From the UHGV virus genome UHGV-0856201: a stretch of DNA of 61,875 nt; one strand, given 5' to 3'. Below the pieces are notes generated by a model that was given only the letters and a program-made list of their open reading frames with translations, was not told where the DNA came from and did no database searches. This DNA is from a virus. Below are positions 1,620-60,060 of the stretch, in pieces. The position numbers and the translations under genes were made by a program. Each line of letters opens with the position of its first letter. Position 1 is the first letter of the stretch.

Positions 1620-1684
1620 CAGATTTACCATACACATTTACAGACATACAACTAGTGGAACAAGTAAGATACAACCCATTCCTG

Positions 1685-2029
1685 TCAGTTAACATACTTC
1701 GCGATCAGTTTATCACAGTCCTCGCGACAGGTAGCATACTTAAACAGGTCACTTGCTGCTTCTGCCCGGTAGTCAGTATCAATAGTGTAATGTTCATTGA
1801 CATAGTTATAGGCTGCAAGGTAATTGCTGAACATCCCACTGGTTACCACTTTCGGTTGTCCCCTTACGACCTTACCGTTAAACAGATATGCTATTAGCAA
1901 AATCAGACCACCGATCACAGGACTTGTGAGAAATGCGATAAAGAACCATACACCAGAGTTACGACCTGTTTGTTTGGCAACACCCGCGACAACCAGAGAG
2001 AAAAGAATCCATAAAATAGTGAATAGCAT
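1685..2029 (-). CDS. small membrane protein (phage)
   Basis: 114-aa ORF with hydrophobic segments; RBS aaggagg; first gene downstream of promoter copy at 2050-2100. Confidence 0.5.
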   Translation of the reverse strand: MLFTILWILFSLVVAGVAKQTGRNSGVWFFIAFLTSPVIGGLILLIAYLFNGKVVRGQPKVVTSGMFSNYLAAYNYVNEHYTIDTDYRAEAASDLFKYATCREDCDKLIAKYVN

Positions 2030-2049
2030 GATTATGTCCTCCTTTGTTT

Positions 2050-2100
2050 TGATGTTTGTAGGTTACACGTCCTTGTGTAATCCGTCAAGAATTATTTTAA
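2050..2100 (-). promoter_or_regulatory. conserved phage early promoter (copy 1)
   Basis: plus-strand gtcaagaattatttta at 2084-2099; -35 TTGACG on minus strand with AT-rich upstream element. Confidence 0.6.
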
Positions 2101-2340
2101 ATTATCGTAGACAGGCGGTAAGCCCATTGCAGCCTGTACAGACCGTTTTTCGTATTCCTCCCGAAGTTTCTGAAGTCGTTCAATACCGATGTCACAACCA
2201 CGTATTATATCAGCGCACAGGTCGTTGTAGGTCGCTTCAGATTGCTTGCTGTGTGGGTAATCAACACAGGATGGATCTGCAATAATGACTTTCGGCAGAT
2301 ACGCGACAGTATCGCCCATTGCGTTTTTAAATATCGTCAT
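2092..2340 (-). CDS. hypothetical protein
   Basis: 82-aa ORF in compact minus-strand operon; no recognised motif. Confidence 0.4.
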   Translation of the reverse strand: MTIFKNAMGDTVAYLPKVIIADPSCVDYPHSKQSEATYNDLCADIIRGCDIGIERLQKLREEYEKRSVQAAMGLPPVYDNLK

Positions 2341-2666
2341 AAATACGACCCCACAATTGCAGCACAGTTGACGATCGCTAAACGCGTTGCTTTTTCACGG
2401 TCTTCCCCGTGGCTAACTGGTTGCTTATAACTAACGCCAGTGTCAGGGTTATTAACCGTCACTTCGTTGTCACGAACATCCAGATCCATGTACATGTTAA
2501 CCATCAGACTGAAAGCATCCTCATTACGTGTAAGAGGGTTCCACAGGCGACCATTACCTATATCAATACCTTCGTTTATGTAACGTTCGTCGTACGCGAC
2601 GTAATATTTACCCTGGATTTCAGCAGCCCGTGCTGCGTTGACTAATAAATCACGATTGTTCATCAC
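2337..2666 (-). CDS. hypothetical protein
   Basis: 109-aa ORF, start/stop overlap with neighbours; no confident family. Confidence 0.4.
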   Translation of the reverse strand: MMNNRDLLVNAARAAEIQGKYYVAYDERYINEGIDIGNGRLWNPLTRNEDAFSLMVNMYMDLDVRDNEVTVNNPDTGVSYKQPVSHGEDREKATRLAIVNCAAIVGSYL

Positions 2667-3022
2667 ATGTTCCCCGTTGTACGTTTATATTCTTGAACAC
2701 AGTAATCAAAGTATTCACCATGTGTTTTAACATAATTAATTAGTTCAATTATTACGTCACCGTGGCATGGTTTAGGAGAACAGAAACAAACTAAATCTTT
2801 ACCGTCTAAAGATAAAATATCAGATTTAGTTATGTTTCCTTTCAAACATTCATTCCACAACCATGTTTTATAACGAAATAATGTCGCACCTCGTTCTTCA
2901 TTTTCCGAAAGTTTAAAAGGGTTTGCGAATTTACTTTGTGTTAACCCTTTACCACCGCGACCAATATAAACAGCACCTTCTGGGATTTGTTTACCAATAT
3001 GGTAGAAGTTTAACACTTTCAT
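2663..3022 (-). CDS. DUF4326-family protein
   Basis: Start at internal Met (MKVLNFYHIG); motifs VYIGRGGKG, FANPF, CFCSPKPCHGDV match my recollection of DUF4326. Confidence 0.6.
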   Translation of the reverse strand: MKVLNFYHIGKQIPEGAVYIGRGGKGLTQSKFANPFKLSENEERGATLFRYKTWLWNECLKGNITKSDILSLDGKDLVCFCSPKPCHGDVIIELINYVKTHGEYFDYCVQEYKRTTGNM

Positions 3023-3023
3023 G

Positions 3024-3527
3024 TTACATGTCCCCCGTTGATCCAAACCCGCCATTACGCTGACTATCAACATCTGGTAATTCTTCCACTTCAACCAGGT
3101 TAACAGGTTCGACACGTTCAACCATAAGCTGACAAACACGTTCACCGTCTGCGATAGTCTGTAATTTCTGCCCGTGGTTAGTCAGCGAAACGTAGTATTC
3201 TTCTTTGTAATCACGATCACCGATACCCACACAGTTGATCAGTGATAAACCGTATTTAAGACTCATGCCGGAACGTGGGTAAATTTTAATGCAATATCCG
3301 CTATCAACTGACATTTTCAGACCAGTGGGGATCATAGCGCGGTCGCCGGGCCATAATGCGATTGTTCCTGCAACAACCGGACGTTCCACTTTAGCGCCTG
3401 ATTCTGTGAATATAGTTACCGATTCTTCCCACAGGCAAGCACGAACGTCTAACCCTGCGCTGTCTGGTGTTGCACGTGTCGGAAGTTCAGCGTGGGGTGT
3501 TAGTTTTTTGATATACAGGTTAGTCAT
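3024..3527 (-). CDS. dut: dUTP diphosphatase (dUTPase)
   Basis: Canonical dUTPase motifs: DSAGLDVRA, PRSGMSLKYG, GIGDRDYKEE, RNGGFGSTG. Confidence 0.9.
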   Translation of the reverse strand: MTNLYIKKLTPHAELPTRATPDSAGLDVRACLWEESVTIFTESGAKVERPVVAGTIALWPGDRAMIPTGLKMSVDSGYCIKIYPRSGMSLKYGLSLINCVGIGDRDYKEEYYVSLTNHGQKLQTIADGERVCQLMVERVEPVNLVEVEELPDVDSQRNGGFGSTGDM

Positions 3528-3554
3528 TGTTTGATTCCTCAGTGTGTTTCGTTC

Positions 3555-4992: not shown

Positions 4993-5952
4993 ATGGCTAC
5001 TAAAGACCCATACCCGGATATTTCAGACAAGTATGACGCTCGCATTCGCGAAGCACTTGACGTTGTGTGGGAAAACGTGCGTCGTAGTGAGTCGTTAGCT
5101 AACCTGGAATACATCATTGAAACTCAGGGTATTGCCGGGCTACTCCCCATTCTTGAAACACTCCCTGATGAACTTAGTGCACAGTTGCGCCCGGTTATTG
5201 AAGACGCGATCGCCGAATCAGGTCGTGTAGTCGTTCAGGTTTTACCGAAAGCGGCTGTGACAGGTCCGGTTGTGTTCAGTCTGGTCACCCCACAGGTCAG
5301 TACATACATCAACAACTATGTCGGACAACTGATCCGTGAAGTCAGTGACGAAACAGTCAAAGCTGTTCAGATTGCTGTTAACCAGGGTGTGGTAACCGGA
5401 CGAAATCCGCGTCAGATAGCCCGTGATTTTCGATCATCAATAGGGTTAACCACACGGCAGGAAATGACGGTTCAACGTCTGCGATCAGCACTGGAAAAAG
5501 GTGAAGCAGGTTATGTGAACAGTCTGACCACTGTTACAGACAGTGCAAAGAACGCTGTAAGTGCCGGGAAACTATCACAGGCGAAGATTGACCAGATAAT
5601 CGAACAGACACGCTTGCGTTACGTAAAACAGCGTACAGAGACAATAGCGCGTACTGAATCACTTCGTGCTGTATCAGTTGGTCAGGATCAGGCAATACGT
5701 CAGGGACAGATTACCGGGGCTATTAGTAATGAATTGCTGAAGCGCTGGTTATATAGAAAGGATGGTCGGACACGTGATGCGCATATTTCCACGGGTGAAA
5801 CGAACGGTTGGATACCAATGGACAGACCGTTTTCAACGCCGTTAGGACCACTCATGTTTCCTCGTGATCCTAACGGTAGTGCCGCGAACGTGATTAATTG
5901 TCGTTGCAGGGTTGCTTATTCTCTCCCTCAAGATATAAATGTTATCCCGTGA
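4993..5952 (+). CDS. head morphogenesis protein (Mu F-like / SPP1 gp7-like)
   Basis: 319 aa; C-terminal NVINCRCRV motif and overall pattern typical of Mu-F family minor head proteins. Confidence 0.65.
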   Translation: MATKDPYPDISDKYDARIREALDVVWENVRRSESLANLEYIIETQGIAGLLPILETLPDELSAQLRPVIEDAIAESGRVVVQVLPKAAVTGPVVFSLVTPQVSTYINNYVGQLIREVSDETVKAVQIAVNQGVVTGRNPRQIARDFRSSIGLTTRQEMTVQRLRSALEKGEAGYVNSLTTVTDSAKNAVSAGKLSQAKIDQIIEQTRLRYVKQRTETIARTESLRAVSVGQDQAIRQGQITGAISNELLKRWLYRKDGRTRDAHISTGETNGWIPMDRPFSTPLGPLMFPRDPNGSAANVINCRCRVAYSLPQDINVIP

Positions 5953-6865
5953 TTATACGTATTAGAGTGGTTATATTTGGATTCCATTTTAACCACTCTG
6001 TACAACCATCGAACCCGGTTAATCCTGCAGATTCAAAATGAGAATGAAAATCTTTTTCAAGTGAACGAATGGTTTTACCATCAGAATTATATATTTCAAT
6101 AACATTGAATTCAAAAGGTGTTCTTTTCTTCAATATTTTTATTCTATTTTCAACATTGTTGCTAATACCTATTTTAACATAACTACCGCATAGAGATCTT
6201 AAAACATATAAGCTAGCTTTGTTTTTGATTTTAAAACCTGTTGCAGCGCAACCTGCACAACGTCTGTCAGTATGTAATAATGTTGTAGGTGTTGTTATAA
6301 ATTCACCATGTTTTTGACATTTAATTTTTATCTTACTGTATTGATTAACATACCCATTGACCCAACCCAAAAATTCATAATTTAATGACAAACATTTTTC
6401 ATTTATCTCTTTTTCTCTTATATGTAATGGTGTCTTTTTATTTTCAAAATAACATTTCTTACAGAAACTTTTATTTATAGTAATGTTGTTACCGGAAGAC
6501 ACCCACTGACCATGTTTAGTACATTCTATTAATGCTTTTGTGCGAACACCATGATAATTTTCAATCCATTTTACAAATTTATAACCTCGCGAGTTACAAA
6601 TATTAGTGATACGTTTTTCATATTCTTTTTGGTCTATACTATTTTTTAGTGCTATGTTCTCATTACTACATTTCTTACAAAAATTTCTACCATTCACTAT
6701 CAAATCAGAGGATGTTTCCCACTCACCATGTTTTTGACAATGCATTATTAGTCTACTTGATGCATTCTTGTAACCATTTAAGAATCTGACAAAATGATAA
6801 ATAGTACCTTTGCAAATTTCTGAAATCTCTGAAAGTCTTTCATGTTCTGTTTTTCGTTTAGTCAA
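5942..6865 (-). CDS. T5orf172-domain protein with Zn-ribbon repeats (homing-endonuclease-like), paralog 1
   Basis: Repeated CxKHGxW...CKKC modules; C-terminal YVLRS...KIGIS...GFDGCTEWL typical of T5orf172 domain. Confidence 0.65.
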   Translation of the reverse strand: MTKRKTEHERLSEISEICKGTIYHFVRFLNGYKNASSRLIMHCQKHGEWETSSDLIVNGRNFCKKCSNENIALKNSIDQKEYEKRITNICNSRGYKFVKWIENYHGVRTKALIECTKHGQWVSSGNNITINKSFCKKCYFENKKTPLHIREKEINEKCLSLNYEFLGWVNGYVNQYSKIKIKCQKHGEFITTPTTLLHTDRRCAGCAATGFKIKNKASLYVLRSLCGSYVKIGISNNVENRIKILKKRTPFEFNVIEIYNSDGKTIRSLEKDFHSHFESAGLTGFDGCTEWLKWNPNITTLIRIITG

Positions 6866-6941: not shown

Positions 6942-7208
6942 TTAATCAGGTTCACGCCAGTCAAGAGGTCGCACATCACATAACAGACGAACATTATCTT
7001 CAAATTTTATGTTTACCCTGTGATGTGCCGTATCATTTTCATAAACAGAGGGCCATATTTCATAACCCTGAACAGTTCGTGCCACCCACTTGTTAATGCT
7101 TGCCAGATGGATCAACACTTCACAACCAACGGGAGGAAGGTTTTTACCATCCCAAATCTGTTTCATTCCCATAGCGGTTACTCCTGTTTCTCCCCGCAGA
7201 ACGGACAA
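6942..7208 (-). CDS. hypothetical protein
   Basis: 88-aa ORF; no recognised motif. Confidence 0.4.
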   Translation of the reverse strand: MSVLRGETGVTAMGMKQIWDGKNLPPVGCEVLIHLASINKWVARTVQGYEIWPSVYENDTAHHRVNIKFEDNVRLLCDVRPLDWREPD

Positions 7209-7453
7209 TAAGACATTTTGATGTTGGTTTCCAGGCGTGTGAAGTTCTTCGCCAGTTCACCGTTTTTCTTTTTAGCGCGGTATGTAAGACGATATTTCAA
7301 CATGACGTGTGTTTTACCAGACGTCAGACCGAAACACTGATTATCCCAGCCAACTTTATCAAACAGGTTAGTGCTGACTTCCGAACCTACTGGTACTTTT
7401 TCCATCAGACGTTTTTGAAGTTCGTCACCAACTTTTTTCATGCAATCACACAT
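7178..7453 (-). CDS. hypothetical protein with C-terminal Zn-binding motif
   Basis: 91 aa; CDC near N-term and CPFCG at C-term. Confidence 0.4.
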   Translation of the reverse strand: MCDCMKKVGDELQKRLMEKVPVGSEVSTNLFDKVGWDNQCFGLTSGKTHVMLKYRLTYRAKKKNGELAKNFTRLETNIKMSYCPFCGEKQE

Positions 7454-7617
7454 TATGCATACCTCGATAGGCGTTTTAATTTAACGATCAACCTTGTGAC
7501 TTTACTCCAGTCAGATTCAGTAAAGTCGTCCACATCTTTAGCCCATAACTCATTAACATGTCGTGGGTTATATGGTTCTTTCTTGACGGGCGGTTTCCTT
7601 TTCTTTTTACCCATAGG

Positions 7618-8169
7618 TTATAATCCAAGTAAAAGTTTAAGCGCACGTTTACGAACATCATCCTGTTTACGCAAAGCAGTTAATTCTTTTTGCAGATTTT
7701 CTTTCTCTTCCCGTAACTTTTTCATGTCTACCAACAACAAATCATAGGTCTTACGATCGACTTCAATTTCGTTACGTAGTTCGTCATTTTGTTTGTGCAA
7801 TTCTCCGATTTCACACTGTAGTTGCAGTAATGGCTGTGGTTGATGCGTCTGTTGCAACTTCTTTAATTTGGCTAATACAGCTTTGCGAACGGCTTTAGAT
7901 TCACGCATACCCACAAGAAGCATTTGATCCATGTTTAGATCGACCACTTCAAACGGTTTTCTATTACCACCTCTTCCCTGAAGTTTGGGTGTGAAAAGTT
8001 TCGTAACCAAAACTTGACCTTCTAATTCATCCTTAACTCTGGCTAAGAAATCATTATGACGAACCCAGACTTCCTCACCTGCAGCCACACGTGCTGGGTT
8101 GATAAAATTCTTCAAGAAATCCAGACTGGATATTGTGAATTCGTCATCAACATTCATAACTTCAAACAT
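7618..8169 (-). CDS. hypothetical protein with coiled-coil C-terminus
   Basis: Start at MFEVMN (8169), just after leader peptide; heptad-rich C-terminus. Confidence 0.45.
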   Translation of the reverse strand: MFEVMNVDDEFTISSLDFLKNFINPARVAAGEEVWVRHNDFLARVKDELEGQVLVTKLFTPKLQGRGGNRKPFEVVDLNMDQMLLVGMRESKAVRKAVLAKLKKLQQTHQPQPLLQLQCEIGELHKQNDELRNEIEVDRKTYDLLLVDMKKLREEKENLQKELTALRKQDDVRKRALKLLLGL

Positions 8170-8174
8170 AACCG

Positions 8175-8243
8175 TCAACCTCTTACTATTCCTACAATTA
8201 CAGGTACTGCGAAAATCATGAAAGCCAGTATGTAGTAAATCAT
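8175..8243 (-). CDS. small hydrophobic leader peptide (22 aa)
   Basis: MIYYILAFMIFAVPVIVGIVRG; RBS aaggag 8 nt upstream; directly downstream of promoter copy 3. Confidence 0.3.
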   Translation of the reverse strand: MIYYILAFMIFAVPVIVGIVRG

Positions 8244-8264
8244 CGCGTATCTCCTTTTTTCTTC

Positions 8265-8600: not shown

Positions 8601-8645
8601 ACGTAAAATAATTCTTGACGGATTACACCGACACAACTACCCTGT
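8600..8645 (+). promoter_or_regulatory. conserved phage early promoter (copy 4)
   Basis: aaaataattcttgacggattacaccgac; -35 TTGACG at 8615-8620. Confidence 0.6.
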
Positions 8646-8673: not shown

Positions 8674-9189
8674 ATGGATCCGAACATCAGAGTTGCTACA
8701 GACGAATTCATTCGTCGCGCCCGTAAAATTCACGGTGATCGTTACGACTACTCATTCAGCATTGTTGAAGATAGTTCCAGCACCGTGGTTATTATTGATC
8801 GTGAAACTAACACAGTGTTCTTTCAGGTCGTCTCTGAACATCTGGACGGTGTTGAACCAGTAACCACTGCTGTTGAACCAGTAACCACTGCTGTTGAACC
8901 AGTAACCACTGCTGTTGAACCAGTAACGACTACTGTTGAACCAGTAACGACTACTGTTGAACCGGTAACGACTGCTGTTGAACCAGTAACCACTGCTGTT
9001 GAACCAGTAACGACTACTGTTGAACCGGTAACGACTGCTGTTGAACCGGTAACGACTGCTGTTGAACCGATCAAGAATCTTTCTGAGATATTCGGTAACG
9101 TTGTAAACAGCGTGTATCACCAGTGCAATTATTCATCTGAAATGTTAGAATTTAGTCATGTTAAAACAATACGAGGACAATCCCCGTGA
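8674..9189 (+). CDS. repeat-containing protein (VEPVTTA x ~10)
   Basis: N-terminal FIRRARKIHGDRYDYS shared with T5orf172 paralogs; central 21-bp in-frame tandem repeats. Confidence 0.5.
   Translation: MDPNIRVATDEFIRRARKIHGDRYDYSFSIVEDSSSTVVIIDRETNTVFFQVVSEHLDGVEPVTTAVEPVTTAVEPVTTAVEPVTTTVEPVTTTVEPVTTAVEPVTTAVEPVTTTVEPVTTAVEPVTTAVEPIKNLSEIFGNVVNSVYHQCNYSSEMLEFSHVKTIRGQSP
8851..9070 (+). repeat. 21-bp tandem repeat (~10 units) inside CDS
   Basis: gttgaaccagtaac(c/g)act(g/a)ct repeated head to tail. Confidence 0.9.
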
Positions 9190-9596
9190 TTAACGTAAAA
9201 GTTAATAAGGTTGACAACTCACTACGTATGGTATTCGGTTGGGGTAGCATCTGTAAAAAACGTAATCAGGAGACAGGCCAGTTAGAAATTTACACAGACA
9301 CGGATAACGAGCAATTTCCCGAGGATGTCACTCTGAAAGCATGGTTGGACTTCATGAATTCTGATCAGCGCATTATGGATAATATGCACAATGAACAACC
9401 TGTTGGGAAAGTTGTGTTTGCGTTTCCGATGACTGAAGACATTGCGGCAAGTTTTGGGCTGGTTGATAAACTGGATCAGACAGGCGTCATTGTTGGTACG
9501 TTGATAACTGATGACGAAGTTTTGAAAAAGTTTCAGACTGGTGAATATACGGGATATAGTATCGGTGGGACTGCATATTATGAGGATGTGGAATAA
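9186..9596 (+). CDS. putative prohead protease
   Basis: 136 aa; position before scaffold/capsid genes; weak resemblance to XkdF-like proteases. Confidence 0.35.
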   Translation: MINVKVNKVDNSLRMVFGWGSICKKRNQETGQLEIYTDTDNEQFPEDVTLKAWLDFMNSDQRIMDNMHNEQPVGKVVFAFPMTEDIAASFGLVDKLDQTGVIVGTLITDDEVLKKFQTGEYTGYSIGGTAYYEDVE

Positions 9597-49348: not shown

Positions 49349-49349
49349 A

Positions 49350-51235: not shown

Positions 51236-51296
51236 GTTCCACACTCCTGTTTGATAGTTTCAGGGTAGTGTGGAACTGGTGAAGATGGTATAGGAT

Positions 51297-51695: not shown

Positions 51696-51747
51696 TTCGC
51701 TAATACACCAATAATGAAAATTAGCATGTAGAATAAAACATTACGGG

Positions 51748-51906: not shown

Positions 51907-51909
51907 AGT

Positions 51910-52140: not shown

Positions 52141-52420
52141 TTACACGTTGTTTTGTCTGAGTAGTGACACATGCACCATCGGTACGCCCAAAAGTTTCTA
52201 ACACGGTTTGAAGTGCTTGATACATTTCAGGACTGTTTAACATTAATGACAGGTTACCCCGGAGTTCCTGGAGTTTTTCTTGTTCTTCGTTTGGTAAGTA
52301 ACAAGGGTCTTCCATTTTAATAACCACTTGCGCGATTGCCCCGTGGTCTGGTGATGAAATGCTCACATGATTTTCAACCCACCCTTCATCTTTAAACCAC
52401 GGTAATTGTGAACATTTCAT
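52097..52420 (-). CDS. hypothetical protein
   Basis: Start at MKCSQLPW (52420) preferred over upstream Met. Confidence 0.4.
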   Translation of the reverse strand: MKCSQLPWFKDEGWVENHVSISSPDHGAIAQVVIKMEDPCYLPNEEQEKLQELRGNLSLMLNSPEMYQALQTVLETFGRTDGACVTTQTKQRVIENIRELLERVEHG

Positions 52421-52527
52421 AATATTTACCTTTTTGTTTAGTGACAAGATATCTCTTCAACCCGACATGCACCAAAATCTTTAAGTTCATTTTTAGTAAT
52501 TTTCATTCTGTATAACCCTCTGTTCAT

Positions 52528-52753: not shown

Positions 52754-54517
52754 ATGAATAAGTTTACTGGAAATATTCATAATTACCCGCGCTGGCGTGA
52801 TGCCTACGCAAACGACGAACGTATCTGGCGAAAAGGTCAGCCACGACCGGATTACAAACAGTGTTACATTGACCGTATTAACCTGTTAAATCGTATGCGC
52901 ACGGATCGGGCAATTGTCCCGGTACTGAAAAAGTATTACGAAACAAACCCTGTAGCGTTCATTCTCGACTGGGCGTTTACTTATGACCCGCGTAACGTTG
53001 GTACTGAATACCCGCCAAACATGCCTTTCTGCCTTTTCGAACGTCAAATCGACATGGTTCAGTTTGTTTACGAAGCGCTTGAAGACAAAGAAAAGGGGCT
53101 TTGGGAAAAATCGCGAGATTATGGTGCGACCTGGGTAGCCTGTGGTTTGTCCGTGTGGGCGTGGTTGTATCGTCCTGGTTCGTCAGTCGGCTGGGGTTCA
53201 CGTAAAGAACAGCTTGTCGATAAACTGGGTGACCCGGATAGTATTTTTGAAAAGATTCGCCAGATTATCCGCGCATTACCACCGGAATTACGTCCTATTA
53301 GTCTGCGTGAAAAAGACCATCTGGTTTACACGAAATGTATCAACCCTGAAAACGGTGCGACAATTACTGGTGAAGCTGGCGATAACATCGGTCGTGGTGG
53401 TCGTAAATCTGTTTATTTTTTGGACGAAGCAGCACACGTAGATCGTCCTGAACTGATTGAAGCGTCGTTGTCAGCTAACACCAACGTTCGAATTGATATC
53501 AGTTCCGTTAACGGTGTTGGTAACGTTTTTTATCGCAACCGTAAAGCTGGTCTGGAATGGGAACCTGGCAAGAAATTACCCCGTGGTAAATTGCGTGTCA
53601 TGGTTCTGGACTGGCGTGATCACCCGGCTAAAGACGACGAATGGTATAAACGAGAAAAACAATCGTTCGCTGAAAAGGGTTTACAGCATATTTTCGCACA
53701 GGAAGTTGACCGCGATTATGCAGCTGCTGTCCAGGGTGTACTGATTAAAGCTGAATGGGTACGTGCTGCTTTTGACGCTTTCCGTGACACAGAATGGCGC
53801 AAAGCTAACGGACTACTTACACCAACAGGTCAACGTATCGCCGGACAGGACGCAGCAGACGGTGGTGAAGACGCAAGCGCACTGGTAATTGCTCACGGTG
53901 TATTCCTGACACATCTGCAACTTGACCACAGAGGCGCTGAACTGGCTGCACCAGGGATGTTGACGATGGCTAATATGCTGGGTGTTGATGAATACTGGTA
54001 CGAAGTTAACGGTGTTGGTACAGGCGTTAAAGTAGCGGCAAACGACCGGAAAGATACTTTACGCTTCCGTGTGCGCCCGTGGTTACCGAATGGAAAAGTT
54101 GTGGATCCGGGTGGTGATATTATTGGTGGTACAAAACCTGGTGACAAAGACCGTAAATCAAACAAAGATTATTTCTCAAATTATAAAGCACAAGCATCGT
54201 GGGCGTTACGCCTGCGTTGTCAGCGAATTTATAAATGGTATGTGGAAGGTCAACCACAGGATCCGGACGAAATCATTCTGATTGATCCGTCACTGGAAAA
54301 CGCACAACGGTTAGAAGCTGAGTTAAGTCAGCCAACGTATACCAGTAACGGTGCCGGGAAGATTGTGATCGACAAGAAACCAAACGGAAGTAAGTCACCA
54401 AACTTTTTCGATGCTGCGGTTATTGCACTATCACCAAAACGCACTGAATTTGTCGAAGAACCATTTACTGGTGGTGTGAACCCTGTTGGTACTCCTGAAT
54501 ACGGTGACATTTTTTAA
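52754..54517 (+). CDS. terminase large subunit
   Basis: 587 aa; Walker B-like VYFLDEAAH; size and position before portal; followed by strong terminator. Confidence 0.65.
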   Translation: MNKFTGNIHNYPRWRDAYANDERIWRKGQPRPDYKQCYIDRINLLNRMRTDRAIVPVLKKYYETNPVAFILDWAFTYDPRNVGTEYPPNMPFCLFERQIDMVQFVYEALEDKEKGLWEKSRDYGATWVACGLSVWAWLYRPGSSVGWGSRKEQLVDKLGDPDSIFEKIRQIIRALPPELRPISLREKDHLVYTKCINPENGATITGEAGDNIGRGGRKSVYFLDEAAHVDRPELIEASLSANTNVRIDISSVNGVGNVFYRNRKAGLEWEPGKKLPRGKLRVMVLDWRDHPAKDDEWYKREKQSFAEKGLQHIFAQEVDRDYAAAVQGVLIKAEWVRAAFDAFRDTEWRKANGLLTPTGQRIAGQDAADGGEDASALVIAHGVFLTHLQLDHRGAELAAPGMLTMANMLGVDEYWYEVNGVGTGVKVAANDRKDTLRFRVRPWLPNGKVVDPGGDIIGGTKPGDKDRKSNKDYFSNYKAQASWALRLRCQRIYKWYVEGQPQDPDEIILIDPSLENAQRLEAELSQPTYTSNGAGKIVIDKKPNGSKSPNFFDAAVIALSPKRTEFVEEPFTGGVNPVGTPEYGDIF

Positions 54518-56733: not shown

Positions 56734-56759
56734 GCCCCGGAACTGTCCGGGGCTTTTTT
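56734..56759. terminator. bidirectional rho-independent terminator
   Basis: gccccggaactgtccggggc followed by TTTTTT. Confidence 0.7.
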
Positions 56760-57040
56760 CAACGTCTGAAAGATGAAAGAACAGCGAGGCTAGCAGAACC
56801 TAAACCGAATATGACGGCGTATGTTAGTTGATGTTGAAGTTTCACAAAACCGTAATAATCGCTTTGTAATTCCACGATGTCAAAAGCAATTGAAAAACTG
56901 GTTACCAGCAACATGATTGAAAGAACACGAATCAGAGCAACTGCTAACCCTATCACCCCTTGTTCTTTTTTCTCAGTTGTAATAACGACAACAATCATTA
57001 ACAGAAGTGAAAAAGCAATGTACATGTATTCCATAATCAT
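56759..57040 (-). CDS. small membrane protein
   Basis: 93 aa with two hydrophobic helices. Confidence 0.4.
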   Translation of the reverse strand: MIMEYMYIAFSLLLMIVVVITTEKKEQGVIGLAVALIRVLSIMLLVTSFSIAFDIVELQSDYYGFVKLQHQLTYAVIFGLGSASLAVLSSFRR

Positions 57041-57201
57041 TAGTCCCGATAAACTTCAGCACACCCGTAATTTTTACCAGGGTTGTAAGCCTGTTCAGCT
57101 TGTAAAGCACCCTGACACTGTTCGAACGTCATGATGCGTTCTGTCACAGGTTCAATAGCCACACCGTATAGAACAAGCACCAGTACATAACCAATTAACA
57201 T
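57040..57201 (-). CDS. small membrane/secreted protein (53 aa)
   Basis: MLIGYVLVLVLYGVAIEPV...; TAATG-type overlap with downstream gene. Confidence 0.3.
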   Translation of the reverse strand: MLIGYVLVLVLYGVAIEPVTERIMTFEQCQGALQAEQAYNPGKNYGCAEVYRD

Positions 57202-57530
57202 TCTCTTAGAGTCTCCGCCCAGTCCAGACCATGTAGGTTTACAGTTGCAAGCCTCACTTTTGGGATACCGTAACGACGATTATCCCAAAATTCATCACAG
57301 AGTTCTGGTTCACTAAAATACCCGTAAACAACCCCGTAACTATTCGTGGCTATATAGTCAATATCTTCAGGAACAGTTAAAGACAAACCAAAATAATTGA
57401 CCGTTTTATACACGTCTGCACTAGCCAGTGTCATTTTACAATCTGGTGCTTCTTCGTGGATATCCCACGATTTACCACAATGCGAACACTGATATTCATC
57501 ATTACAGCGAATAGCGTTTACATGATTCAT
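57195..57530 (-). CDS. hypothetical Cys-containing protein
   Basis: CNDEYQCSHCGKSWDIHEEAPDC; 111 aa. Confidence 0.4.
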   Translation of the reverse strand: MNHVNAIRCNDEYQCSHCGKSWDIHEEAPDCKMTLASADVYKTVNYFGLSLTVPEDIDYIATNSYGVVYGYFSEPELCDEFWDNRRYGIPKVRLATVNLHGLDWAETLREC

Positions 57531-57542
57531 GATTATTCTTCC

Positions 57543-57878
57543 TCAGTTACGGATGATACCGTTGATGGAATGTGAATTAGCACATGACTTTGTAGTAATA
57601 TTTCCATTAACTGTTTTGATATTACCGCTATCCCCAGTGACAGAAACATTACCATTAACCGTTTTGATATCTCCACTGTTTCCTGAAATGTTAACTTCAC
57701 CGTTAGTCGTTTCAATGGATTCGACATCACCATAAACACTGATCGATATGTTACCAACCAGATTACCATCAACCTGTATGCCATCAACAATTACTTTATC
57801 ACCGTTAATTTCAAATTTACGCCCTGTAAATTCACGACCGTCAATTATTACTTTACCATTACTCATATTTATTTTCAT
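57543..57878 (-). CDS. beta-solenoid repeat protein (bactofilin-like)
   Basis: Repeats VIVDGIQVDGNLVGNISISVYGDVESIETTNGEVNISGNSGDIKTVNGNVSVTGDSGNIKTVNGNI. Confidence 0.45.
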   Translation of the reverse strand: MKINMSNGKVIIDGREFTGRKFEINGDKVIVDGIQVDGNLVGNISISVYGDVESIETTNGEVNISGNSGDIKTVNGNVSVTGDSGNIKTVNGNITTKSCANSHSINGIIRN

Positions 57879-58195
57879 TTAACTGTCTCCGGTACAAACC
57901 ACATTGACGCAAGATATGCACACCCGGCAATTTTATGTTCGTGTTTAGGTTCGAAACTACCCAGGATCACTTTGATATGTGCGTGAGCATCTTTAAAGTT
58001 CACACCTTCAACAGCAACTGCGTATTCTTTCAGACCGTTGAAAAACCATTTGCTGATCCACTGATTCCACGGGTTAGAATTTTCGAAAAATTCTTTCGGA
58101 ATACTACCCATCGTCGGGAGGAATTCAGCAATGTTTTTAGGTCCAAAAGCAATATCCAGTTGTGTAATATTTTCATTCGGTTTCATAGTCATCAC
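57875..58195 (-). CDS. hypothetical protein
   Basis: 106 aa; first gene after promoter copy 15. Confidence 0.4.
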   Translation of the reverse strand: MMTMKPNENITQLDIAFGPKNIAEFLPTMGSIPKEFFENSNPWNQWISKWFFNGLKEYAVAVEGVNFKDAHAHIKVILGSFEPKHEHKIAGCAYLASMWFVPETVK

Positions 58196-58209
58196 CCTTC
58201 GTTCATTTG

Positions 58210-58260
58210 ATGACTAAAGCATAATCGCAAGTTTGCAATCCGTCAAGAATTATTTTAACA
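58210..58260 (-). promoter_or_regulatory. conserved phage early promoter (copy 15)
   Basis: ccgtcaagaattattttaacacc; -35 TTGACG 58241-58246 (minus). Confidence 0.6.
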
Positions 58261-58328
58261 CCGTGCAAAAAAACCATCACTGATATAACATACGTTAAGA
58301 ACCGTAAACCGTATGGAGCCTGTAAAAC

Positions 58329-59684
58329 ATGGCTGATCAACAATTCGAACAACTAGCCGTTGCCGGGTACAGTCGAACAGGCAACCAGGTAAACGACGAT
58401 TTCCTTCCTAAACTAAACGGTAAACAAGGCCGTCGTATTCTTCGTCAGATGGCTGAGAACGACGAAACTATTGGCGGTGTGTTGTTCGCCATGAGTAGCG
58501 TTTATCGTTCTGTACAGTGGATTTTTGACCCGTCTGACAAAGATGATCCAGAAGCTATCCGTTATTCAGAATGGTTACAGGATGCTATTGAAAATAAAAT
58601 GGGTGATCCGCGTGGTGCACTCCCGGATGATACCTGGTCTGCGTTCGTTCAGACATGGACAGACGTTGATGTATTCGGCTGGGGTTGGTATGACATCTGG
58701 GTCAAAGATCTTGATGACGGCACTGTGGGTATTGCCCGTCTGGTTCCTGTAGCACCTGAAACGCTTGCTGGCTGGGATATTGAAGAACCGACAGGTTATG
58801 TTCGTGGTATTTATCAACGTTCACCTAATCAGGGTACAACGACGTTAATCACACGTGACCGTTCGCTTCATTTGATTTCAAGTCCGAATAAAGGTAACCC
58901 GGAAGGTTTATCACTGCTGCGCACAGCTTATCGTCCGTGGTATTACAAAAAAGTGAATATGGAAATCGAATCCATACTTGCCGAACGTGGTACAGGGTTC
59001 CCGGTAATTACTGTTAACGCAGATATTAAGAAAGCGGCTAATGACCCTAATGTTCCTGAACAACAGCGTCAGGCAGCACAGGCGATGATTGATAACTATG
59101 AAAATATCGTTGCTAATATCAAACGCAATGAACAATCAGGACTGGTGATTTATTCTAAACCTTATATCACGGGTTACGATAACGAAACAGGTGTTACCAC
59201 GTACGGTGGTGAACAACAGGTGAAGCTGGAATTCGTTACACCTAACCAGACCAGTTCCGTGGATATTGACCGGACGATTAAACGCCTGGATACCAGTATT
59301 GCCCGTGCGTTACTGGCTGATTTCATGTTTTTCGGAACGGGTGGTAATACCGGGAATAACGCCAACCTGGGTAGTCGTACTGAATTATGGATCCGCGCAA
59401 TGCAATCACGTATTGACAGCATTGTAGAATGTGTTAATCGTCAGTTGATACCGCAGTTATGGTCGTTAAACGCATTTCCTGATGAATACCGCCCGTCGAT
59501 TCGCGCCGGATCGATCAGTAAAGACAGTATCGAAACGTTGACCACTGCACTTGCACGACTTGCACAAGCTGGCGCACCTGTATTCCCGGATCCAGACCTT
59601 CAGGAATACGTATATAAAGAGGCGGGTCTACCAATTACGGGGATTGATAAAGCAGGGGACGGATTACCGTCTATTGACGACTGA
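58329..59684 (+). CDS. putative portal protein
   Basis: 451 aa; downstream of terL and, across the circular join, upstream of the Mu-F-like gene. Confidence 0.5.
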   Translation: MADQQFEQLAVAGYSRTGNQVNDDFLPKLNGKQGRRILRQMAENDETIGGVLFAMSSVYRSVQWIFDPSDKDDPEAIRYSEWLQDAIENKMGDPRGALPDDTWSAFVQTWTDVDVFGWGWYDIWVKDLDDGTVGIARLVPVAPETLAGWDIEEPTGYVRGIYQRSPNQGTTTLITRDRSLHLISSPNKGNPEGLSLLRTAYRPWYYKKVNMEIESILAERGTGFPVITVNADIKKAANDPNVPEQQRQAAQAMIDNYENIVANIKRNEQSGLVIYSKPYITGYDNETGVTTYGGEQQVKLEFVTPNQTSSVDIDRTIKRLDTSIARALLADFMFFGTGGNTGNNANLGSRTELWIRAMQSRIDSIVECVNRQLIPQLWSLNAFPDEYRPSIRAGSISKDSIETLTTALARLAQAGAPVFPDPDLQEYVYKEAGLPITGIDKAGDGLPSIDD

Positions 59685-59690
59685 ATGAAA

Positions 59691-59712
59691 AAGGGACCGT
59701 TACTGGTCCCTT
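59691..59712. terminator. bidirectional terminator hairpin
   Basis: aagggaccgttactggtccctt between convergent genes. Confidence 0.55.
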
Positions 59713-59717
59713 AATTT

Positions 59718-60050
59718 TTACTTAGCTTCAGGTTGCACGATTGACAGTAATTTGCTCGCTTCATCAACCGCAGTCTGAATACGAGTCTGTAACGGATAAC
59801 TGTTGTTGATCGCACGTTCCAGCGTTTTATCAAGCAATTGCAGTTTGACTTCATCATCGCCAGTGAACGCGTACATGTCAGCAACGACTTCCTTAAACTG
59901 TGATGCTTTCTCAACGATAGTTGTGGTTACAATGTAGTTCCAGACTTTGTTGAGTAGTTTAAATTTCACTTCGTTGTCAGCAACTGCATCAACCAGAATT
60001 TCAGCAGCAGTCTTGTCATATTTAACAAGCTCAAGAATTTCAAAACGCAT
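59718..60050 (-). CDS. hypothetical protein
   Basis: 110-aa ORF; RBS ggagaagac; co-transcribed with 1685-2029 across the circular join. Confidence 0.4.
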   Translation of the reverse strand: MRFEILELVKYDKTAAEILVDAVADNEVKFKLLNKVWNYIVTTTIVEKASQFKEVVADMYAFTGDDEVKLQLLDKTLERAINNSYPLQTRIQTAVDEASKLLSIVQPEAK

Positions 60051-60060
60051 TTAAGTCTTC

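What the first reader, a model, noticed from the sequence alone, without database searches (positions are those of the whole stretch)
1681..60060. Complete circularly closed 58,380-bp siphovirus-type phage genome with heavily interrupted structural module
The 127-bp end repeat indicates a closed circular or terminally redundant assembly. Late genes (terS, terL, portal, Mu-F-like, protease, scaffold, decoration, capsid, tail) are in lambda-like order but are repeatedly interrupted by opposite-strand cassettes with their own early promoters. terS and terL are separated by ~4 kb. No integrase or repressor was recognised, so a virulent lifestyle is the default guess.
Basis: partly seen in the sequence, partly recalled or inferred. 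Interest (0 to 1): 0.5.

Follow-up and report, generated by a model that had tools for sequence, protein, structure and literature searches.

The report
Known-type coliphage genome in chimeric scaffold
The region is a complete genome of a new species-level member of the already described 9NA-like (Sashavirus/Nonanavirus) virulent phages of E. coli and Salmonella, and its interrupted structural gene module is the published hallmark of that group; it is ordinary, except that the assembly has wrongly spliced it between pieces of two different anelloviruses (small DNA viruses of humans and other vertebrates).

Summary

The unit is a complete 9NA-like siphovirus genome. Identity times aligned fraction is 0.80 to Escherichia phage AVIO78A, 0.79 to KarinMuster_Bas82 and 0.70 to Salmonella phage Sasha. 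That puts it in the same genus-level cluster as a new species-level member.

TerS, terL, portal, Mu-F-like protein, XkdF-type protease, capsid, tail tube, tape measure and J-like tip are confirmed by profile searches. They lie in canonical order. Seven minus-strand blocks interrupt them, six with their own copy of a conserved sigma-70-type promoter (16 hits against 0.28 expected). This layout, including the ~4 kb terS-terL gap, is shared with relatives and was published for 9NA in 2014. No integrase was found, and there is no match in 5,426 complete E. coli genomes or 72,556 plasmids. Virulence is therefore well supported.

New points:
- 127 is a typical assembler k-mer length.
- The flanks (1-1679, 60415-61875) are halves of two different anelloviruses, joined through 100 N and a second 127-mer copied from terS. 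The scaffold is a chimera.
- Three T5orf172 homing-endonuclease-like genes account for three interruptions.
- The tape-measure gene carries a frameshift seen in none of five relatives.

Interest is low.

The parts
1680..60060 (.). One non-redundant copy of the phage genome (58,381 bp), 9NA-like / Sashavirus-Nonanavirus cluster
   Evidence: Exact 127-nt overlap. blastn identity x aligned fraction is 0.80 AVIO78A, 0.79 Bas82, 0.78 BDX09P1, 0.73 536P12 and 0.70 Sasha.
60061..60187 (.). Second copy of the 127-nt closing overlap (= 1680-1806); assembler k-mer overlap of a cycle in the graph
   Evidence: 100% identical. It is followed directly by 100 N.
48058..48708 (+). Small terminase subunit (terS)
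   Evidence: phrog_51, E 3.4e-12. Syntenic with Sasha gp01 and AVIO78A_001.
48827..52447 (-). Minus-strand block between terS and terL, about 11 small genes including an RdgC-like protein (49505-50419). Three promoter copies at 49086, 51043 and 52666.
   Evidence: Pfam RdgC, E 2.7e-114. Promoters. AVIO78A has the same block.
52754..54517 (+). Large terminase subunit (terL)
   Evidence: phrog_2 and phrog_5989. Same length as Sasha gp05.
56759..58195 (-). Minus-strand block between the terL-distal + genes and the portal gene; promoter at 58235-58251
   Evidence: ORFs; promoter. Syntenic with Sasha gp11-16.
58329..59684 (+). Portal protein
   Evidence: phrog_113, E 5.5e-66. Pfam Portal_Mu, E 6.6e-24.
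1685..3527 (-). Minus-strand block after the portal gene; it continues across the closure to 59718-60050. Includes dUTPase 3024-3527. Promoters at 2077 and 3580.
   Evidence: Synteny with Sasha gp18-22 and AVIO78A_029-034. Promoters. Bidirectional terminator at 59691-59712.
4993..5952 (+). Head morphogenesis protein (Mu F-like)
   Evidence: phrog_2468, E 1.3e-69. Pfam Phage_Mu_F, E 7.6e-11.
5942..6865 (-). T5orf172/MUG113 + CapR-domain homing-endonuclease-like gene no. 1
   Evidence: Pfam. Absent from five relatives. 99% aa identity in the related phage PDP46, next to its head morphogenesis gene.
6942..8250 (-). Remainder of the minus-strand block between the Mu-F-like gene and the head operon; promoter at 8293-8309
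   Evidence: ORFs. Weak anti-repressor-like PHROG hit for 7618-8250. Promoter.
8610..8626 (+). Plus-strand copy of the conserved promoter, upstream of the head operon
   Evidence: Zero mismatches. 17-nt spacer, TACCCT -10 element, RBS and ATG downstream.
9186..9596 (+). Putative prohead protease (XkdF / Peptidase_S78_2 type)
   Evidence: Pfam, 32.6 bits against a cut-off of 24.
9596..11271 (+). 421-aa conserved head-operon protein of unknown role (scaffold-like by position) and a 136-aa head protein (scaffold or decoration)
   Evidence: phrog_19463, E 3.9e-262, function unknown; phrog_673 'head scaffolding'. Sasha gp35 is annotated 'major virion structural protein'.
11275..12294 (+). Major capsid protein
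   Evidence: phrog_1005, E 1.5e-82. Strong terminator at 12314-12337.
14243..15214 (-). T5orf172/CapR homing-endonuclease-like gene no. 2, inserted between two adjacent head-tail connector genes; no copy of the conserved promoter
   Evidence: Pfam. Paralogous to no. 1 (254 nt at 81%). Absent from all five relatives, where the flanking genes abut.
16049..17506 (+). Major tail tube protein
   Evidence: Pfam Phage_tube_2, E 9.1e-18. phrog_290.
17551..17718 (-). Single small minus-strand gene after the tail tube gene; promoter at 17767-17783
   Evidence: ORF. Promoter. AVIO78A_057 and Bas82_0044 sit at the same place.
17856..18574 (+). Tail assembly chaperones (G and G-T frameshift pair)
   Evidence: Synteny with the annotated frameshift pair in Sasha gp44/45 and AVIO78A_058/059.
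18571..19666 (-). T5orf172/DUF723 homing-endonuclease-like gene no. 3 (18571-19485) plus a 59-aa membrane protein (19487-19666); promoter at 19714-19730
   Evidence: Pfam. Bas82_0047 'endonuclease' and Bas82_0048 at the same site; absent from Sasha and AVIO78A. ORF.
19801..22703 (+). Tape measure gene, split by a 1-nt deletion at about 21516 (ORF 19801-21594, then the -1 frame to 22703)
   Evidence: Pfam TMP_3, E 6.1e-52. tblastn frame change. The deletion is absent from all five relatives.
24058..26586 (+). J-like tail tip protein
   Evidence: Weak Pfam FNIII-A_GpJ hit. Syntenic and equal in length to Sasha gp50 and AVIO78A_064.
26649..28652 (-). Tailspike. The N-terminal ~150 aa are of the 9NA-like type; the C-terminal beta-helix part has been exchanged.
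   Evidence: Pfam Tail_spike_N and Beta_helix. tblastn: aa 1-148 are 84.5% to AVIO78A; aa 76-665 are 87% to Salmonella phage STP55; aa 260-665 are 84% to an E. coli O111 phage.
28652..30072 (+). Lysis cassette (holin, endolysin, spanins)
   Evidence: Synteny with annotated genes of Sasha, AVIO78A and Bas82.
30052..36803 (-). Replication block on the minus strand (methyltransferase, DNA polymerase 32033-33889, Gp2.5-like SSB 33970-34881, exonuclease); promoters at 36853 and 36916
   Evidence: phrog_111. Annotations of relatives. Promoters.
36974..46635 (+). Helicase (36974-38635), primase (39845-42199), ParB-like protein (44077-44844) and small genes including Ea22/Eae-like genes; promoters at 42224 and 43773
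   Evidence: Pfam ResIII/Helicase_C, D5_N and HTH_ParB. Lambdoid matches for 45350-46300.
1..1679 (+). NOT phage: 5' part of anellovirus A (UTR, ORF2 235-618, ORF1 510 to 1679, cut after the RYNP motif)
   Evidence: Pfam TT_ORF1, E 4.8e-79, and TT_ORF2-like. 91% nt identity to Logan contig L011, ending exactly at 1679. No phage DNA match.
60188..60414 (.). Scaffold join: 100 N, then an exact 127-nt copy of phage 48532-48658 (inside terS)
60415..61875 (+). NOT phage: 3' part of a different anellovirus B (ORF1 C-terminal part to 61454, GC-rich repeats 61755-61837)
   Evidence: Pfam TT_ORF1, E 8.2e-39, profile positions 356-525. Only 44% aa identity to the relative of A, and it starts 63 residues upstream of the point where A ends. 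Tandem GC-rich repeat.

Best explanation
Positions 1680-60060 are the complete genome of a virulent siphovirus. It has a long non-contractile tail and infects E. coli or Salmonella-type enterobacteria. It belongs to the 9NA-like cluster (genera Sashavirus/Nonanavirus).

Why it assembles as a circle (inferred by homology to 9NA). The virion DNA is most likely linear, circularly permuted and terminally redundant, produced by headful packaging from a pac site. The 127-nt 'end repeat' is the k-mer overlap that a de Bruijn assembler leaves when it walks once around such a cycle.

Genome organisation (shown). All transcription must use host RNA polymerase, because no phage polymerase is encoded. The virion genes lie on the + strand in canonical order: terS, terL, portal, Mu-F-like, protease, head proteins, capsid, connectors, tail tube, chaperones, tape measure, tip. 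They are cut into short units by seven minus-strand blocks. These blocks take up about 32% of the terS-to-tip region.

Promoters and terminators (sequence shown, activity inferred). Six of the seven blocks start at a copy of one conserved strong sigma-70-type promoter: A/T-rich UP-like tract TTTAAAATAATTC, -35 TTGACG/A, GATTAC, 17-nt spacer, -10 TAnnnT, then an RBS and ATG about 30 nt downstream. Blocks end at hairpin terminators, several of them bidirectional, where they converge with the late genes. The blocks carry small accessory and nucleotide-metabolism or recombination genes such as dUTPase and an RdgC-like protein.

Mobile genes (mobility inferred from distribution). Three blocks contain T5orf172-family homing-endonuclease-like genes. 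Their patchy distribution among relatives marks them as mobile insertions.

Context (chimera inferred, no reads available). The phage contig is not free-standing. The scaffold joins it to the 5' half of one anellovirus and, through 100 N and a 127-mer from terS, to the 3' half of a different anellovirus. This is an assembly or library chimera, not biology.
For: Identity of the phage.
- Megablast and blastn find only 9NA-like phages as whole-genome relatives.
- Identity x aligned fraction is 0.70-0.80 to five of them.
- Gene-for-gene synteny with Sasha, AVIO78A and Bas82, including the minus-strand blocks and the ~4 kb terS-terL gap.
- Structural genes are confirmed by PHROG and Pfam profiles.

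Published description.
[quoted passage not shown] It also reports a circular assembly, a pac fragment, headful packaging, no lysogeny genes and clear plaques (PMC4153490).

Promoters and terminators.
- The promoter family gives 16 hits against 0.28 expected.
- 15 of the 16 have a 17-nt spacer, a -10 element, an RBS and an ATG.
- Each relative carries 8-13 copies at up to 2 mismatches.
- The strongest terminator hairpins sit at block boundaries: 12314, 17527, 18565 (bidirectional), 46641 (bidirectional), 48801, 54525, 56734 and 59691 (bidirectional).

Lifestyle.
- No match to the capsid region in 5,426 complete E. coli genomes or in 72,556 plasmids.
- No integrase or repressor among profile hits for ORFs in the unique segments.

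Homing-endonuclease-like genes.
- Pfam T5orf172/MUG113 plus CapR/DUF723 domains.
- Presence or absence varies among relatives.

Chimera.
- TT_ORF1 and TT_ORF2 hits on the flanks.
- The left flank aligns to an independent anellovirus contig up to exactly 1679.
- The right flank is a different anellovirus and overlaps the left one by 63 homologous residues.
- There are three exact 127-mers and 100 N.
Against: - No reads are available. Circular permutation, terminal redundancy and the pac site are inferred by homology only.
- Timing of the promoters (early or not) is untested. A copy of the same promoter type precedes the + strand head operon (8610) and other + strand genes (42224, 43773, 54557), so the motif does not by itself mark 'early'.
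- The generic promoter and terminator scans are not enriched over shuffles as a whole. Only the specific motif is.
- The tape-measure gene is frame-shifted. Either the consensus has an error or this genome is defective as written.
- A ParB-like gene is present, and Bas82's annotation includes an 'RDF' label. A carrier or pseudolysogenic state is therefore not formally excluded.
- Taxonomic assignment of the cluster is inconsistent in the records: AVIO78A is filed under Nonanavirus and Sasha under Sashavirus.
Confidence: 0.9

Rival explanations
1. The 58.4-kb unit is an integrated prophage or other integrative element, and the 127-nt direct repeats are its attL and attR sites.
For: Direct repeats flank the element, and the repeats are not at the window ends. 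Left-hand flanking DNA is joined without any gap.
Against: - The flanks are anellovirus, not bacterial DNA.
- No integrase or repressor was found (and the annotations of relatives).
- The right repeat is followed directly by 100 N, and a third feature of exactly 127 nt exists. 127 is a standard largest k of SPAdes-type assemblers (own knowledge).
- The sequence across the closure is collinear with free phage genomes.
- No copy is found in 5,426 complete E. coli genomes.
- 9NA is experimentally virulent.
Confidence: 0.01
2. The scaffold reflects real DNA molecules in which phage DNA is covalently joined to anellovirus DNA. Such molecules could be natural recombinants, or chimeras made during multiple-displacement amplification or library ligation.
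For: In a k = 127 graph, a direct join without N at 1679/1680 and at 60414/60415 requires reads that span each junction (inference from how de Bruijn assemblers work). Each junction is clean, with at most 1 nt of shared sequence.
Against: - The two anellovirus pieces come from different viruses: 44% aa identity between the right piece and the relative of the left piece. They overlap by 63 homologous residues, so this is not one anellovirus genome with an insertion.
- A vertebrate ssDNA virus of about 3 kb and a 58-kb coliphage share no host or replication compartment (established knowledge).
- The arrangement of a 5' half, then 100 N, then a 3' half is what reference-guided or paired-end scaffolding of chimeric contigs would give (inference).
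- In-vitro chimeras are plausible, but they are artefacts, not biology.
Confidence: 0.05
3. The genome as written is a defective or mis-assembled consensus rather than a viable complete phage. The tape-measure gene is broken, and other errors may exist.
For: A 1-nt deletion after an A7 run plus a 12-nt deletion in the tape-measure gene are found in none of five relatives. The anellovirus A ORF1 also carries two 1-nt insertions relative to a 91% identical contig.
Against: - All other long conserved genes have exactly the lengths of their homologues: terL 1764, portal 1356, capsid 1020, tail tube 1458, tip 2529, polymerase 1857, helicase 1662 and primase 2355 nt.
- Synteny is complete.
- A single indel does not change what the element is.
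Confidence: 0.35

Closest known systems
Escherichia phage vB_EcoS_AVIO78A (MZ726797, 57,811 bp; filed under Nonanavirus)
   Same: Best overall relative: 83.7% of the genome aligns at 95.4% identity. It has the same gene order, the same ~4.2 kb minus-strand block with an RdgC-like gene between terS and terL, the same lysis and replication modules, and 12 copies of the promoter motif.
   Different: - It lacks all three T5orf172 genes at the window's sites.
- Its tailspike C-terminal domain differs; only aa 1-148 match.
- Several small early genes differ.
- Its tape measure is intact at 971 aa.
- Identity x aligned fraction is 0.80, below the 95% species line (ICTV convention, own knowledge).
Escherichia phage KarinMuster_Bas82 (PQ850612, 58,508 bp; BASEL collection)
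   Same: 82.9% of the genome aligns at 95.8% identity. It carries the same T5orf172 endonuclease plus small membrane-protein cassette between the tail chaperones and the tape measure (Bas82_0047/0048). It is described as a relative of 9NA with about 10 kb more DNA than typical small siphoviruses and no recognisable extra functional locus (PMC11990801).
   Different: - Its tape measure is shorter at 855 aa.
- Its tailspike differs and depends on the O16 antigen.
- It lacks T5orf172 genes no. 1 and no. 2.
Salmonella phages 9NA (KJ802832), Sasha, Sergei, Solent
   Same: These are the founding members of the group. They share the same canonical-order virion genes with interspersed small genes. 9NA gives a circular assembly, shows pac headful packaging and is virulent (PMC4153490). 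Sasha aligns over 75% of the genome at 92.5%. 9NA matches at about 80-83% identity.
   Different: - Their genomes are shorter, at 52.9-56 kb.
- The terS-terL gap is only about 0.9 kb in Sasha.
- Their hosts are Salmonella, and their tailspikes differ.
T5orf172-family homing-endonuclease-like genes of phages (for example Vibrio phage ICP1; the domesticated relative CapR of the PLE satellite)
   Same: Same domain make-up: a C-terminal T5orf172/MUG113 nuclease-type domain with N-terminal CapR-homology or zinc-finger DNA-binding repeats. They are free-standing, sit between conserved genes and are patchy among close relatives. This fits the published pattern that such genes mark boundaries of genetic exchange (PMC10448857, PMC8096241; titles and abstracts seen).
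   Different: No cleavage or homing has been shown for these three genes. They lie on the strand opposite to the structural genes they interrupt.
Betatorquevirus-like anelloviruses (TTV-like mini virus)
   Same: The flanks have an ORF1 with an arginine-rich N-terminus and the TT_ORF1 domain, an ORF2 H-x3-C-x-C-x5-H motif and a GC-rich repeat. The closest database ORF1 is 98% identical over residues 83-366. More distant hits are named 'TTV-like mini virus'.
   Different: They are not part of the phage. The two flanks belong to two different anelloviruses, and neither is complete.

Membership tests
9NA-like phages (Sashavirus/Nonanavirus cluster) | At least ~70% nucleotide identity over the full genome length to members (ICTV genus convention, own knowledge) | tested here: met
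   Identity x aligned fraction is 0.80 AVIO78A, 0.79 Bas82, 0.78 BDX09P1, 0.73 536P12 and 0.70 Sasha. All are below 0.95, so this is a separate species-level genome.
9NA-like phages (Sashavirus/Nonanavirus cluster) | Virion assembly genes in canonical order with many small genes interspersed among them | tested here: met
   Gene order. Seven minus-strand blocks lie between terS and the tail tip. The layout is syntenic with Sasha, AVIO78A and Bas82.
9NA-like phages (Sashavirus/Nonanavirus cluster) | pac-site headful packaging giving circularly permuted, terminally redundant virion DNA | not testable with these tools
   Only the circular assembly (127-nt overlap) and terminase homology are available. 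This needs read-start analysis or restriction mapping of virion DNA.
9NA-like phages (Sashavirus/Nonanavirus cluster) | Virulent: no lysogeny module, no prophage copies | tested here: met
   No integrase or repressor in profile hits or in the annotations of relatives. No match in complete E. coli genomes or plasmids.
Siphovirus morphotype (long non-contractile tail) | Tail tube, tape measure with chaperone pair and J-like tip; no sheath or baseplate wedge genes | tested here: met
   Phage_tube_2 and TMP_3. Chaperone pair by synteny. FNIII-A_GpJ is weak. No sheath is annotated in any relative. Morphology itself was not observed here.
Integrated prophage with att repeats | Integrase/recombinase gene and bacterial flanking DNA | tested here: not met
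   No integrase was found. The flanks are anellovirus. The repeat length equals the assembler k, and the right copy abuts 100 N.
T5orf172-family homing endonuclease genes | T5orf172/MUG113 nuclease-type domain plus DNA-binding repeats | tested here: met
   Pfam hits above cut-off for 5942-6865, 14243-15214 and 18571-19485.
T5orf172-family homing endonuclease genes | Mobility: presence/absence polymorphism at otherwise conserved sites | tested here: met
   No. 1 and no. 2 are absent from five relatives whose flanking genes are conserved. No. 1 is 99% identical in PDP46. No. 3 is present in Bas82 and absent from Sasha and AVIO78A.
T5orf172-family homing endonuclease genes | Site-specific DNA cleavage of the endonuclease-free allele | not testable with these tools
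   Requires biochemistry or co-infection crosses.
Anelloviridae (flanks only) | ORF1 with arginine-rich N-terminus and TT_ORF1 domain; ORF2 motif; GC-rich untranslated region | tested here: met
   TT_ORF1 at E 4.8e-79 (left) and 8.2e-39 (right). TT_ORF2-like scores 24.0 bits, just under the 24.3 cut-off. The HGLTCSCNNPGFH motif is visible. GC-rich 28-nt repeat x3.

The most novel reading that the evidence does not exclude
The joins between phage DNA and anellovirus DNA (1679/1680 and 60414/60415) could represent real covalent molecules present in the sample before any amplification. That would mean natural recombination, or co-packaging, between a coliphage and a vertebrate ssDNA virus.

A more modest alternative concerns the tape-measure gene. 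Its 1-nt deletion sits exactly on an in-phase A_AAA_AAC heptamer, so full-length tape measure might be made by -1 ribosomal slippage. That would be an unusual recoding event inside a tape-measure gene. I put this at about 0.05-0.1, because no downstream structure is present (z = -0.73).
Probability: 0.02. Interest if true: 0.8.

Novelty: new member of a known kind. Interest (0 to 1): 0.12.

Why it matters
Scientifically it matters little. The window adds one more species-level genome to a small, described cluster of virulent enterobacterial siphoviruses. It also confirms that the cluster's odd layout is conserved, with late genes chopped up by divergently transcribed accessory cassettes that share one promoter type.

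It has practical value as a warning. The scaffold would be mis-scored by any pipeline that takes it at face value, for three reasons:
- The contig is not 61.9 kb of phage.
- It would count as an 'anellovirus-containing' or 'eukaryotic-virus-containing' phage contig.
- Terminal-repeat tests for circularity would miss the closure, because the repeat is internal.

The three homing-endonuclease-like insertions and the exchanged tailspike domain are textbook examples of how these genomes diversify.

Tried and rejected
- Source of the window. I looked for the junction string GTAAGATACAACCCATTCCTGTCAGTTAACATAC in IMG/VR, JGI metagenome contigs and GTDB genomes and found nothing. Exact-protein look-ups of the anellovirus ORF1 and of T5orf172 no. 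2 also found nothing. The source remains unknown.
- Key reference. Zeng et al. 2019 (J Virol, 9NA-like phages) is not held in the library. What it says about promoters and the pac site could not be checked, so I rely on Casjens 2014.
- att-site/prophage reading: rejected (see rival explanations).
- Pac ends. I asked whether the phage breakpoints (1680, and 48658 inside terS) could be pac ends. This is rejected by inference. The sequence retained at 48658 lies on the upstream side of the break, which is not the side packaged from a pac cut made in or near terS and read in the late-gene direction. Position 1680 lies in an unrelated minus-strand gene. Without reads this is not proven.
- Programmed -1 frameshift in the tape measure. 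The heptamer is in phase, but there is no significant downstream structure and no upstream Shine-Dalgarno-like element is visible. I treat it as an indel.
- Generic scans. The sigma-70 and terminator scans are not enriched overall. Only the specific conserved motif and the strongest hairpins at block boundaries are informative.
- The ORF at 12681-13190 (-) has no family hit, and no gene is annotated in the corresponding AVIO78A interval. It is probably not a gene.
- tRNA search: none found.

Full report
**1. Observation**

A self-comparison of the window finds an exact 127-nt direct repeat at 1680-1806 and 60061-60187. The period is 58,381 nt, so one genome copy is 1680-60060.

Two further facts change how the repeat should be read.
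- The right copy is followed directly by exactly 100 N (60188-60287).
- After the N run comes a second exact 127-mer, 60288-60414. It is a copy of 48532-48658, inside the small-terminase gene.

Three features of exactly 127 nt, plus an N-filled join, are what a de Bruijn assembly with largest k = 127 followed by scaffolding leaves behind. That 127 is a usual largest k of SPAdes-type assemblers is my own knowledge. The pattern reads as follows:
- one edge enters a cycle at the vertex 1680-1806;
- the path runs once round the cycle and stops when it meets that vertex again;
- another edge leaves the cycle at the vertex 48532-48658.

The repeat therefore does show that the phage sequence closes on itself in the assembly graph. 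It is not a physical terminal repeat.

**2. The flanks are not phage**

Positions 1-1679 have no DNA match in 50,697 phage records. In 60188-61875 only the 127-mer matches.

The left flank encodes an arginine-rich ORF1 (Pfam TT_ORF1, E 4.8e-79) and an ORF2 with the H-x3-C-x-C-x5-H motif. The right flank encodes the C-terminal part of a TT_ORF1 protein (E 8.2e-39) and ends in a GC-rich 28-nt triple repeat. Both flanks are anellovirus.

The left flank is 91% identical in DNA to an independent 2.7-kb anellovirus contig (L011). The alignment stops exactly at 1679, where that contig continues with ...YKDDG... and the window switches to phage.

The right flank is a different anellovirus. It shares 44% protein identity with the close relative of the left flank. 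It begins at the position homologous to residue 243 of that protein, 63 residues before the point where the left flank ends. The short UTR motif shared by the two window ends is only 88% identical.

So the scaffold is: anellovirus A (5' half) | phage cycle | 100 N | phage 127-mer | anellovirus B (3' half). One anellovirus with a phage inserted is excluded. A chimeric assembly, library chimera or scaffolding artefact is by far the most likely reading. It cannot be proven without reads.

**3. What the phage is**

Megablast of the three thirds of the genome finds, as whole-length relatives, only 9NA-like phages:
- Escherichia phages AVIO78A, KarinMuster_Bas82, PJ16 and PDP46;
- 'Sashavirus' BDX09P1 and 536P12;
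- Salmonella phages Sasha, Sergei, Solent, 9NA and SP069.

I fetched five full genomes and ran local blastn.

| Relative | Aligned fraction | Identity over aligned part | Product |
|---|---|---|---|
| AVIO78A | 0.837 | 95.4% | 0.80 |
| Bas82 | 0.829 | 95.8% | 0.79 |
| BDX09P1 | 0.823 | 94.8% | 0.78 |
| 536P12 | 0.784 | 93.4% | 0.73 |
| Sasha | 0.753 | 92.5% | 0.70 |

By the usual conventions (70% for genus, 95% for species; own knowledge) this is a new species-level genome inside a known genus-level cluster.

Only 5.2 kb has no blastn match in any of the five. That DNA comprises:
- two T5orf172 genes;
- the receptor-binding part of the tailspike;
- a few small genes.

**4. Gene calls**

| Gene | Coordinates | Evidence |
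|---|---|---|
| terS | 48058-48708 | phrog_51 |
| terL | 52754-54517 | phrog_2 / phrog_5989 |
| portal | 58329-59684 | Portal_Mu |
| head morphogenesis | 4993-5952 | Phage_Mu_F |
| small protease | 9186-9596 | XkdF-type, Peptidase_S78_2, above cut-off |
| 421-aa cluster-specific protein | 9596-10861 | phrog_19463, function unknown |
| 136-aa head protein | 10861-11271 | PHROG 'scaffolding'; Sasha record 'major virion structural protein' |
| capsid | 11275-12294 | phrog_1005 |
| tail tube | 16049-17506 | Phage_tube_2 |
| tape measure | 19801-22703 | TMP_3 |
| J-like tip | 24058-26586 | weak FNIII-A_GpJ; synteny |

Downstream come:
- the tailspike on the minus strand (Tail_spike_N + Beta_helix);
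- a lysis cassette;
- a minus-strand replication block (polymerase, Gp2.5-like SSB, exonuclease);
- a plus-strand block with helicase, primase and a ParB-like protein.

'Scaffold' and 'decoration' remain positional guesses. The rest is solid.

**5. The interrupted structural module**

Seven minus-strand blocks interrupt the plus-strand virion genes between terS and the tail tip:
- 48827-52447;
- 56759-58195;
- 59718-60050 continuing across the closure to 1685-3527;
- 5942-8250;
- 14243-15214;
- 17551-17718;
- 18571-19666.

Together they cover about 11.8 kb of the 36.9-kb region, or 32% (my arithmetic from the ORF coordinates).

The motif AATTCTTGACGGATTAC occurs 16 times at up to 3 mismatches, against 0.28 expected, and none of 100 shuffles reached 16. 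Aligned with their flanks, 15 of the 16 show the same build:
- an A/T-rich TTTAAAAT tract;
- AATTC;
- -35 TTGACG/A;
- GATTAC;
- a 17-nt spacer;
- a -10 of the form TAnnnT;
- an RBS and ATG about 30 nt downstream.

Eleven hits are on the minus strand, at the head of six of the seven blocks and of the replication block. Some blocks have two or three copies. Of the five plus-strand hits, four are credible:
- 8610, ahead of the head operon;
- 42224 and 43773, ahead of small genes;
- 54557, after terL.

The fifth, at 32020, lacks a credible -10 element.

The strongest hairpin terminators lie at block boundaries, and three are bidirectional, at 18565, 46641 and 59691.

Calling the promoters 'early' goes beyond the evidence, because the same promoter type also heads the capsid operon.

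**6. This is not new**

The layout is shared gene for gene with Sasha, AVIO78A and Bas82. AVIO78A has the same ~4.2 kb minus-strand block with an RdgC-like gene between terS (ends 911) and terL (starts 5131). Each relative carries 8-13 copies of the promoter motif at up to 2 mismatches.

The 2014 announcement of the 9NA genome already states several of these points (PMC4153490):
- the sequence assembles as a circle;
- no lysogeny genes are present;
- plaques are clear.

The BASEL paper notes that Bas82 and its relatives are about 10 kb larger than typical small siphoviruses, with no recognisable extra functional locus (PMC11990801). The fuller 2019 study of the group is not in the library.

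**7. Lifestyle**

No integrase or repressor appears among the profile hits for ORFs in the unique segments, nor in any relative's annotation.

The capsid region has no megablast match in 5,426 complete E. coli genomes or in 72,556 plasmids. That argues against prophage or phage-plasmid forms. The guess of a virulent lifestyle is well supported.

**8. What is particular to this genome**

(a) Three paralogous minus-strand genes carry a T5orf172/MUG113 domain with CapR-homology or DUF723 zinc-finger repeats: 5942-6865, 14243-15214 and 18571-19485.
- No. 2 sits exactly between two connector genes that abut in the relatives.
- No. 1 is absent from the five relatives but 99% identical in PDP46 at the same site.
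- No. 3 is shared with Bas82 only.
- This is the pattern described for T5orf172 homing-endonuclease genes in other phages (PMC10448857, PMC8096241).
- These genes explain three of the interruptions as selfish insertions.

(b) The tailspike is mosaic.
- Residues 1-148 are of the cluster type.
- Residues 76-665 are 87% identical to a tail fibre of the 158-kb Salmonella phage STP55.
- Residues 260-665 are 84% identical to a phage of E. coli O111.

(c) Positions 45.4-46.2 kb carry Ea22/Eae-like genes shared with lambdoid and Stx phages.

(d) The tape-measure gene is split.
- Relative to all five relatives the window lacks one C after an A7 run (about 21516) and 12 further nt.
- The break lies on an in-phase A_AAA_AAC heptamer.
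- The downstream RNA has no significant structure (z = -0.73).
- An assembly error or a defective variant is therefore more likely than recoding.
- All other long genes have the exact lengths of their homologues.

**9. Verdict**

The finding is real and correctly interpreted, but ordinary. It is a complete genome of a new member of a known phage cluster, and its striking layout is already published.

The most useful result of the second look is negative. The scaffold around the phage is a chimera with two anelloviruses, and the '127-bp end repeat' is an assembler signature.

Noticed in passing
window 1-1679 and 60415-61875: The flanks are the 5' half of one anellovirus and the 3' half of a different one (TT_ORF1 and ORF2 domains, GC-rich repeats). 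They overlap by about 63 homologous ORF1 residues but share only about 44% aa identity through a common relative. The scaffold is a phage-anellovirus chimera.
   Followed up: yes
window 60188-60414: There are exactly 100 N, followed by an exact 127-nt copy of phage 48532-48658 (inside terS). This is a scaffold join plus a k-mer vertex where an edge leaves the phage cycle.
   Followed up: yes
window 21505-21545 (tape measure gene 19801-22703): A 1-nt deletion after an A7 run and a 12-nt deletion, found in none of five relatives, split the tape-measure ORF. The break lies on an in-phase A_AAA_AAC slippery heptamer, but no stimulatory downstream structure was found.
   Followed up: yes
window 5942-6865, 14243-15214, 18571-19485 (all minus strand): Three paralogous T5orf172/MUG113 + CapR/DUF723 homing-endonuclease-like genes sit inside the structural module. 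Their presence varies among close relatives.
   Followed up: yes
window 1592-1612: Anellovirus A carries two 1-nt insertions relative to the 91% identical contig L011. They break ORF1 at a TAG (1617-1619) before it resumes in another frame up to RYNP. This could be real hypervariable-region variation or a sequencing error.
   Followed up: partly
window 8850-9068, 34123-34277, 46790-46907: Perfect or near-perfect in-frame tandem repeats lie inside genes: 21 nt x 10.4 (VEPVTTA heptads in the first gene of the head operon), 30 nt x 5.2 (APTPAAAPVA in the Gp2.5-like SSB) and 21 nt x 5.6 (VEAPVAR in the minus-strand gene upstream of terS). The last two are annotated as tandem repeat regions in Sasha.
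   Followed up: partly
window 8422-8521 and 47693-47792: A 100-nt A/T-rich direct repeat (96% identical) lies in two intergenic regions. One is upstream of the head operon and the other upstream of terS. It contains reiterated ATAGA/CATAGA words and the start of a tiny minus-strand ORF. It may be a shared regulatory region for late units; this was not tested.
   Followed up: no
window 26512-26635: A 62-nt tandem duplication (85-92% identical) lies between the tail tip gene and the end of the tailspike gene. Each copy carries the hairpin AACGTGCATC...GATGCACGTT. It is probably a duplicated bidirectional terminator.
   Followed up: no
window 45350-46300: Ea22/Eae-like genes match lambdoid, P22-like and Stx-converting phages at 88-99% DNA identity but match none of the five 9NA-like relatives. 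This indicates recent exchange with temperate phages.
   Followed up: partly
window 26649-28652 (minus strand): The tailspike has a cluster-type N-terminus and a C-terminal beta-helix domain. That domain is 87% identical to a tail fibre of the 158-kb Salmonella phage STP55 and 84% identical to a phage of E. coli O111. This hints at the host O-antigen type.
   Followed up: partly
window 47555-47614: A 31-nt imperfect tandem repeat (x1.9) of GCAC/GTGC-rich words lies in the long non-coding stretch upstream of terS (47469-48057). Its role is unknown.
   Followed up: no
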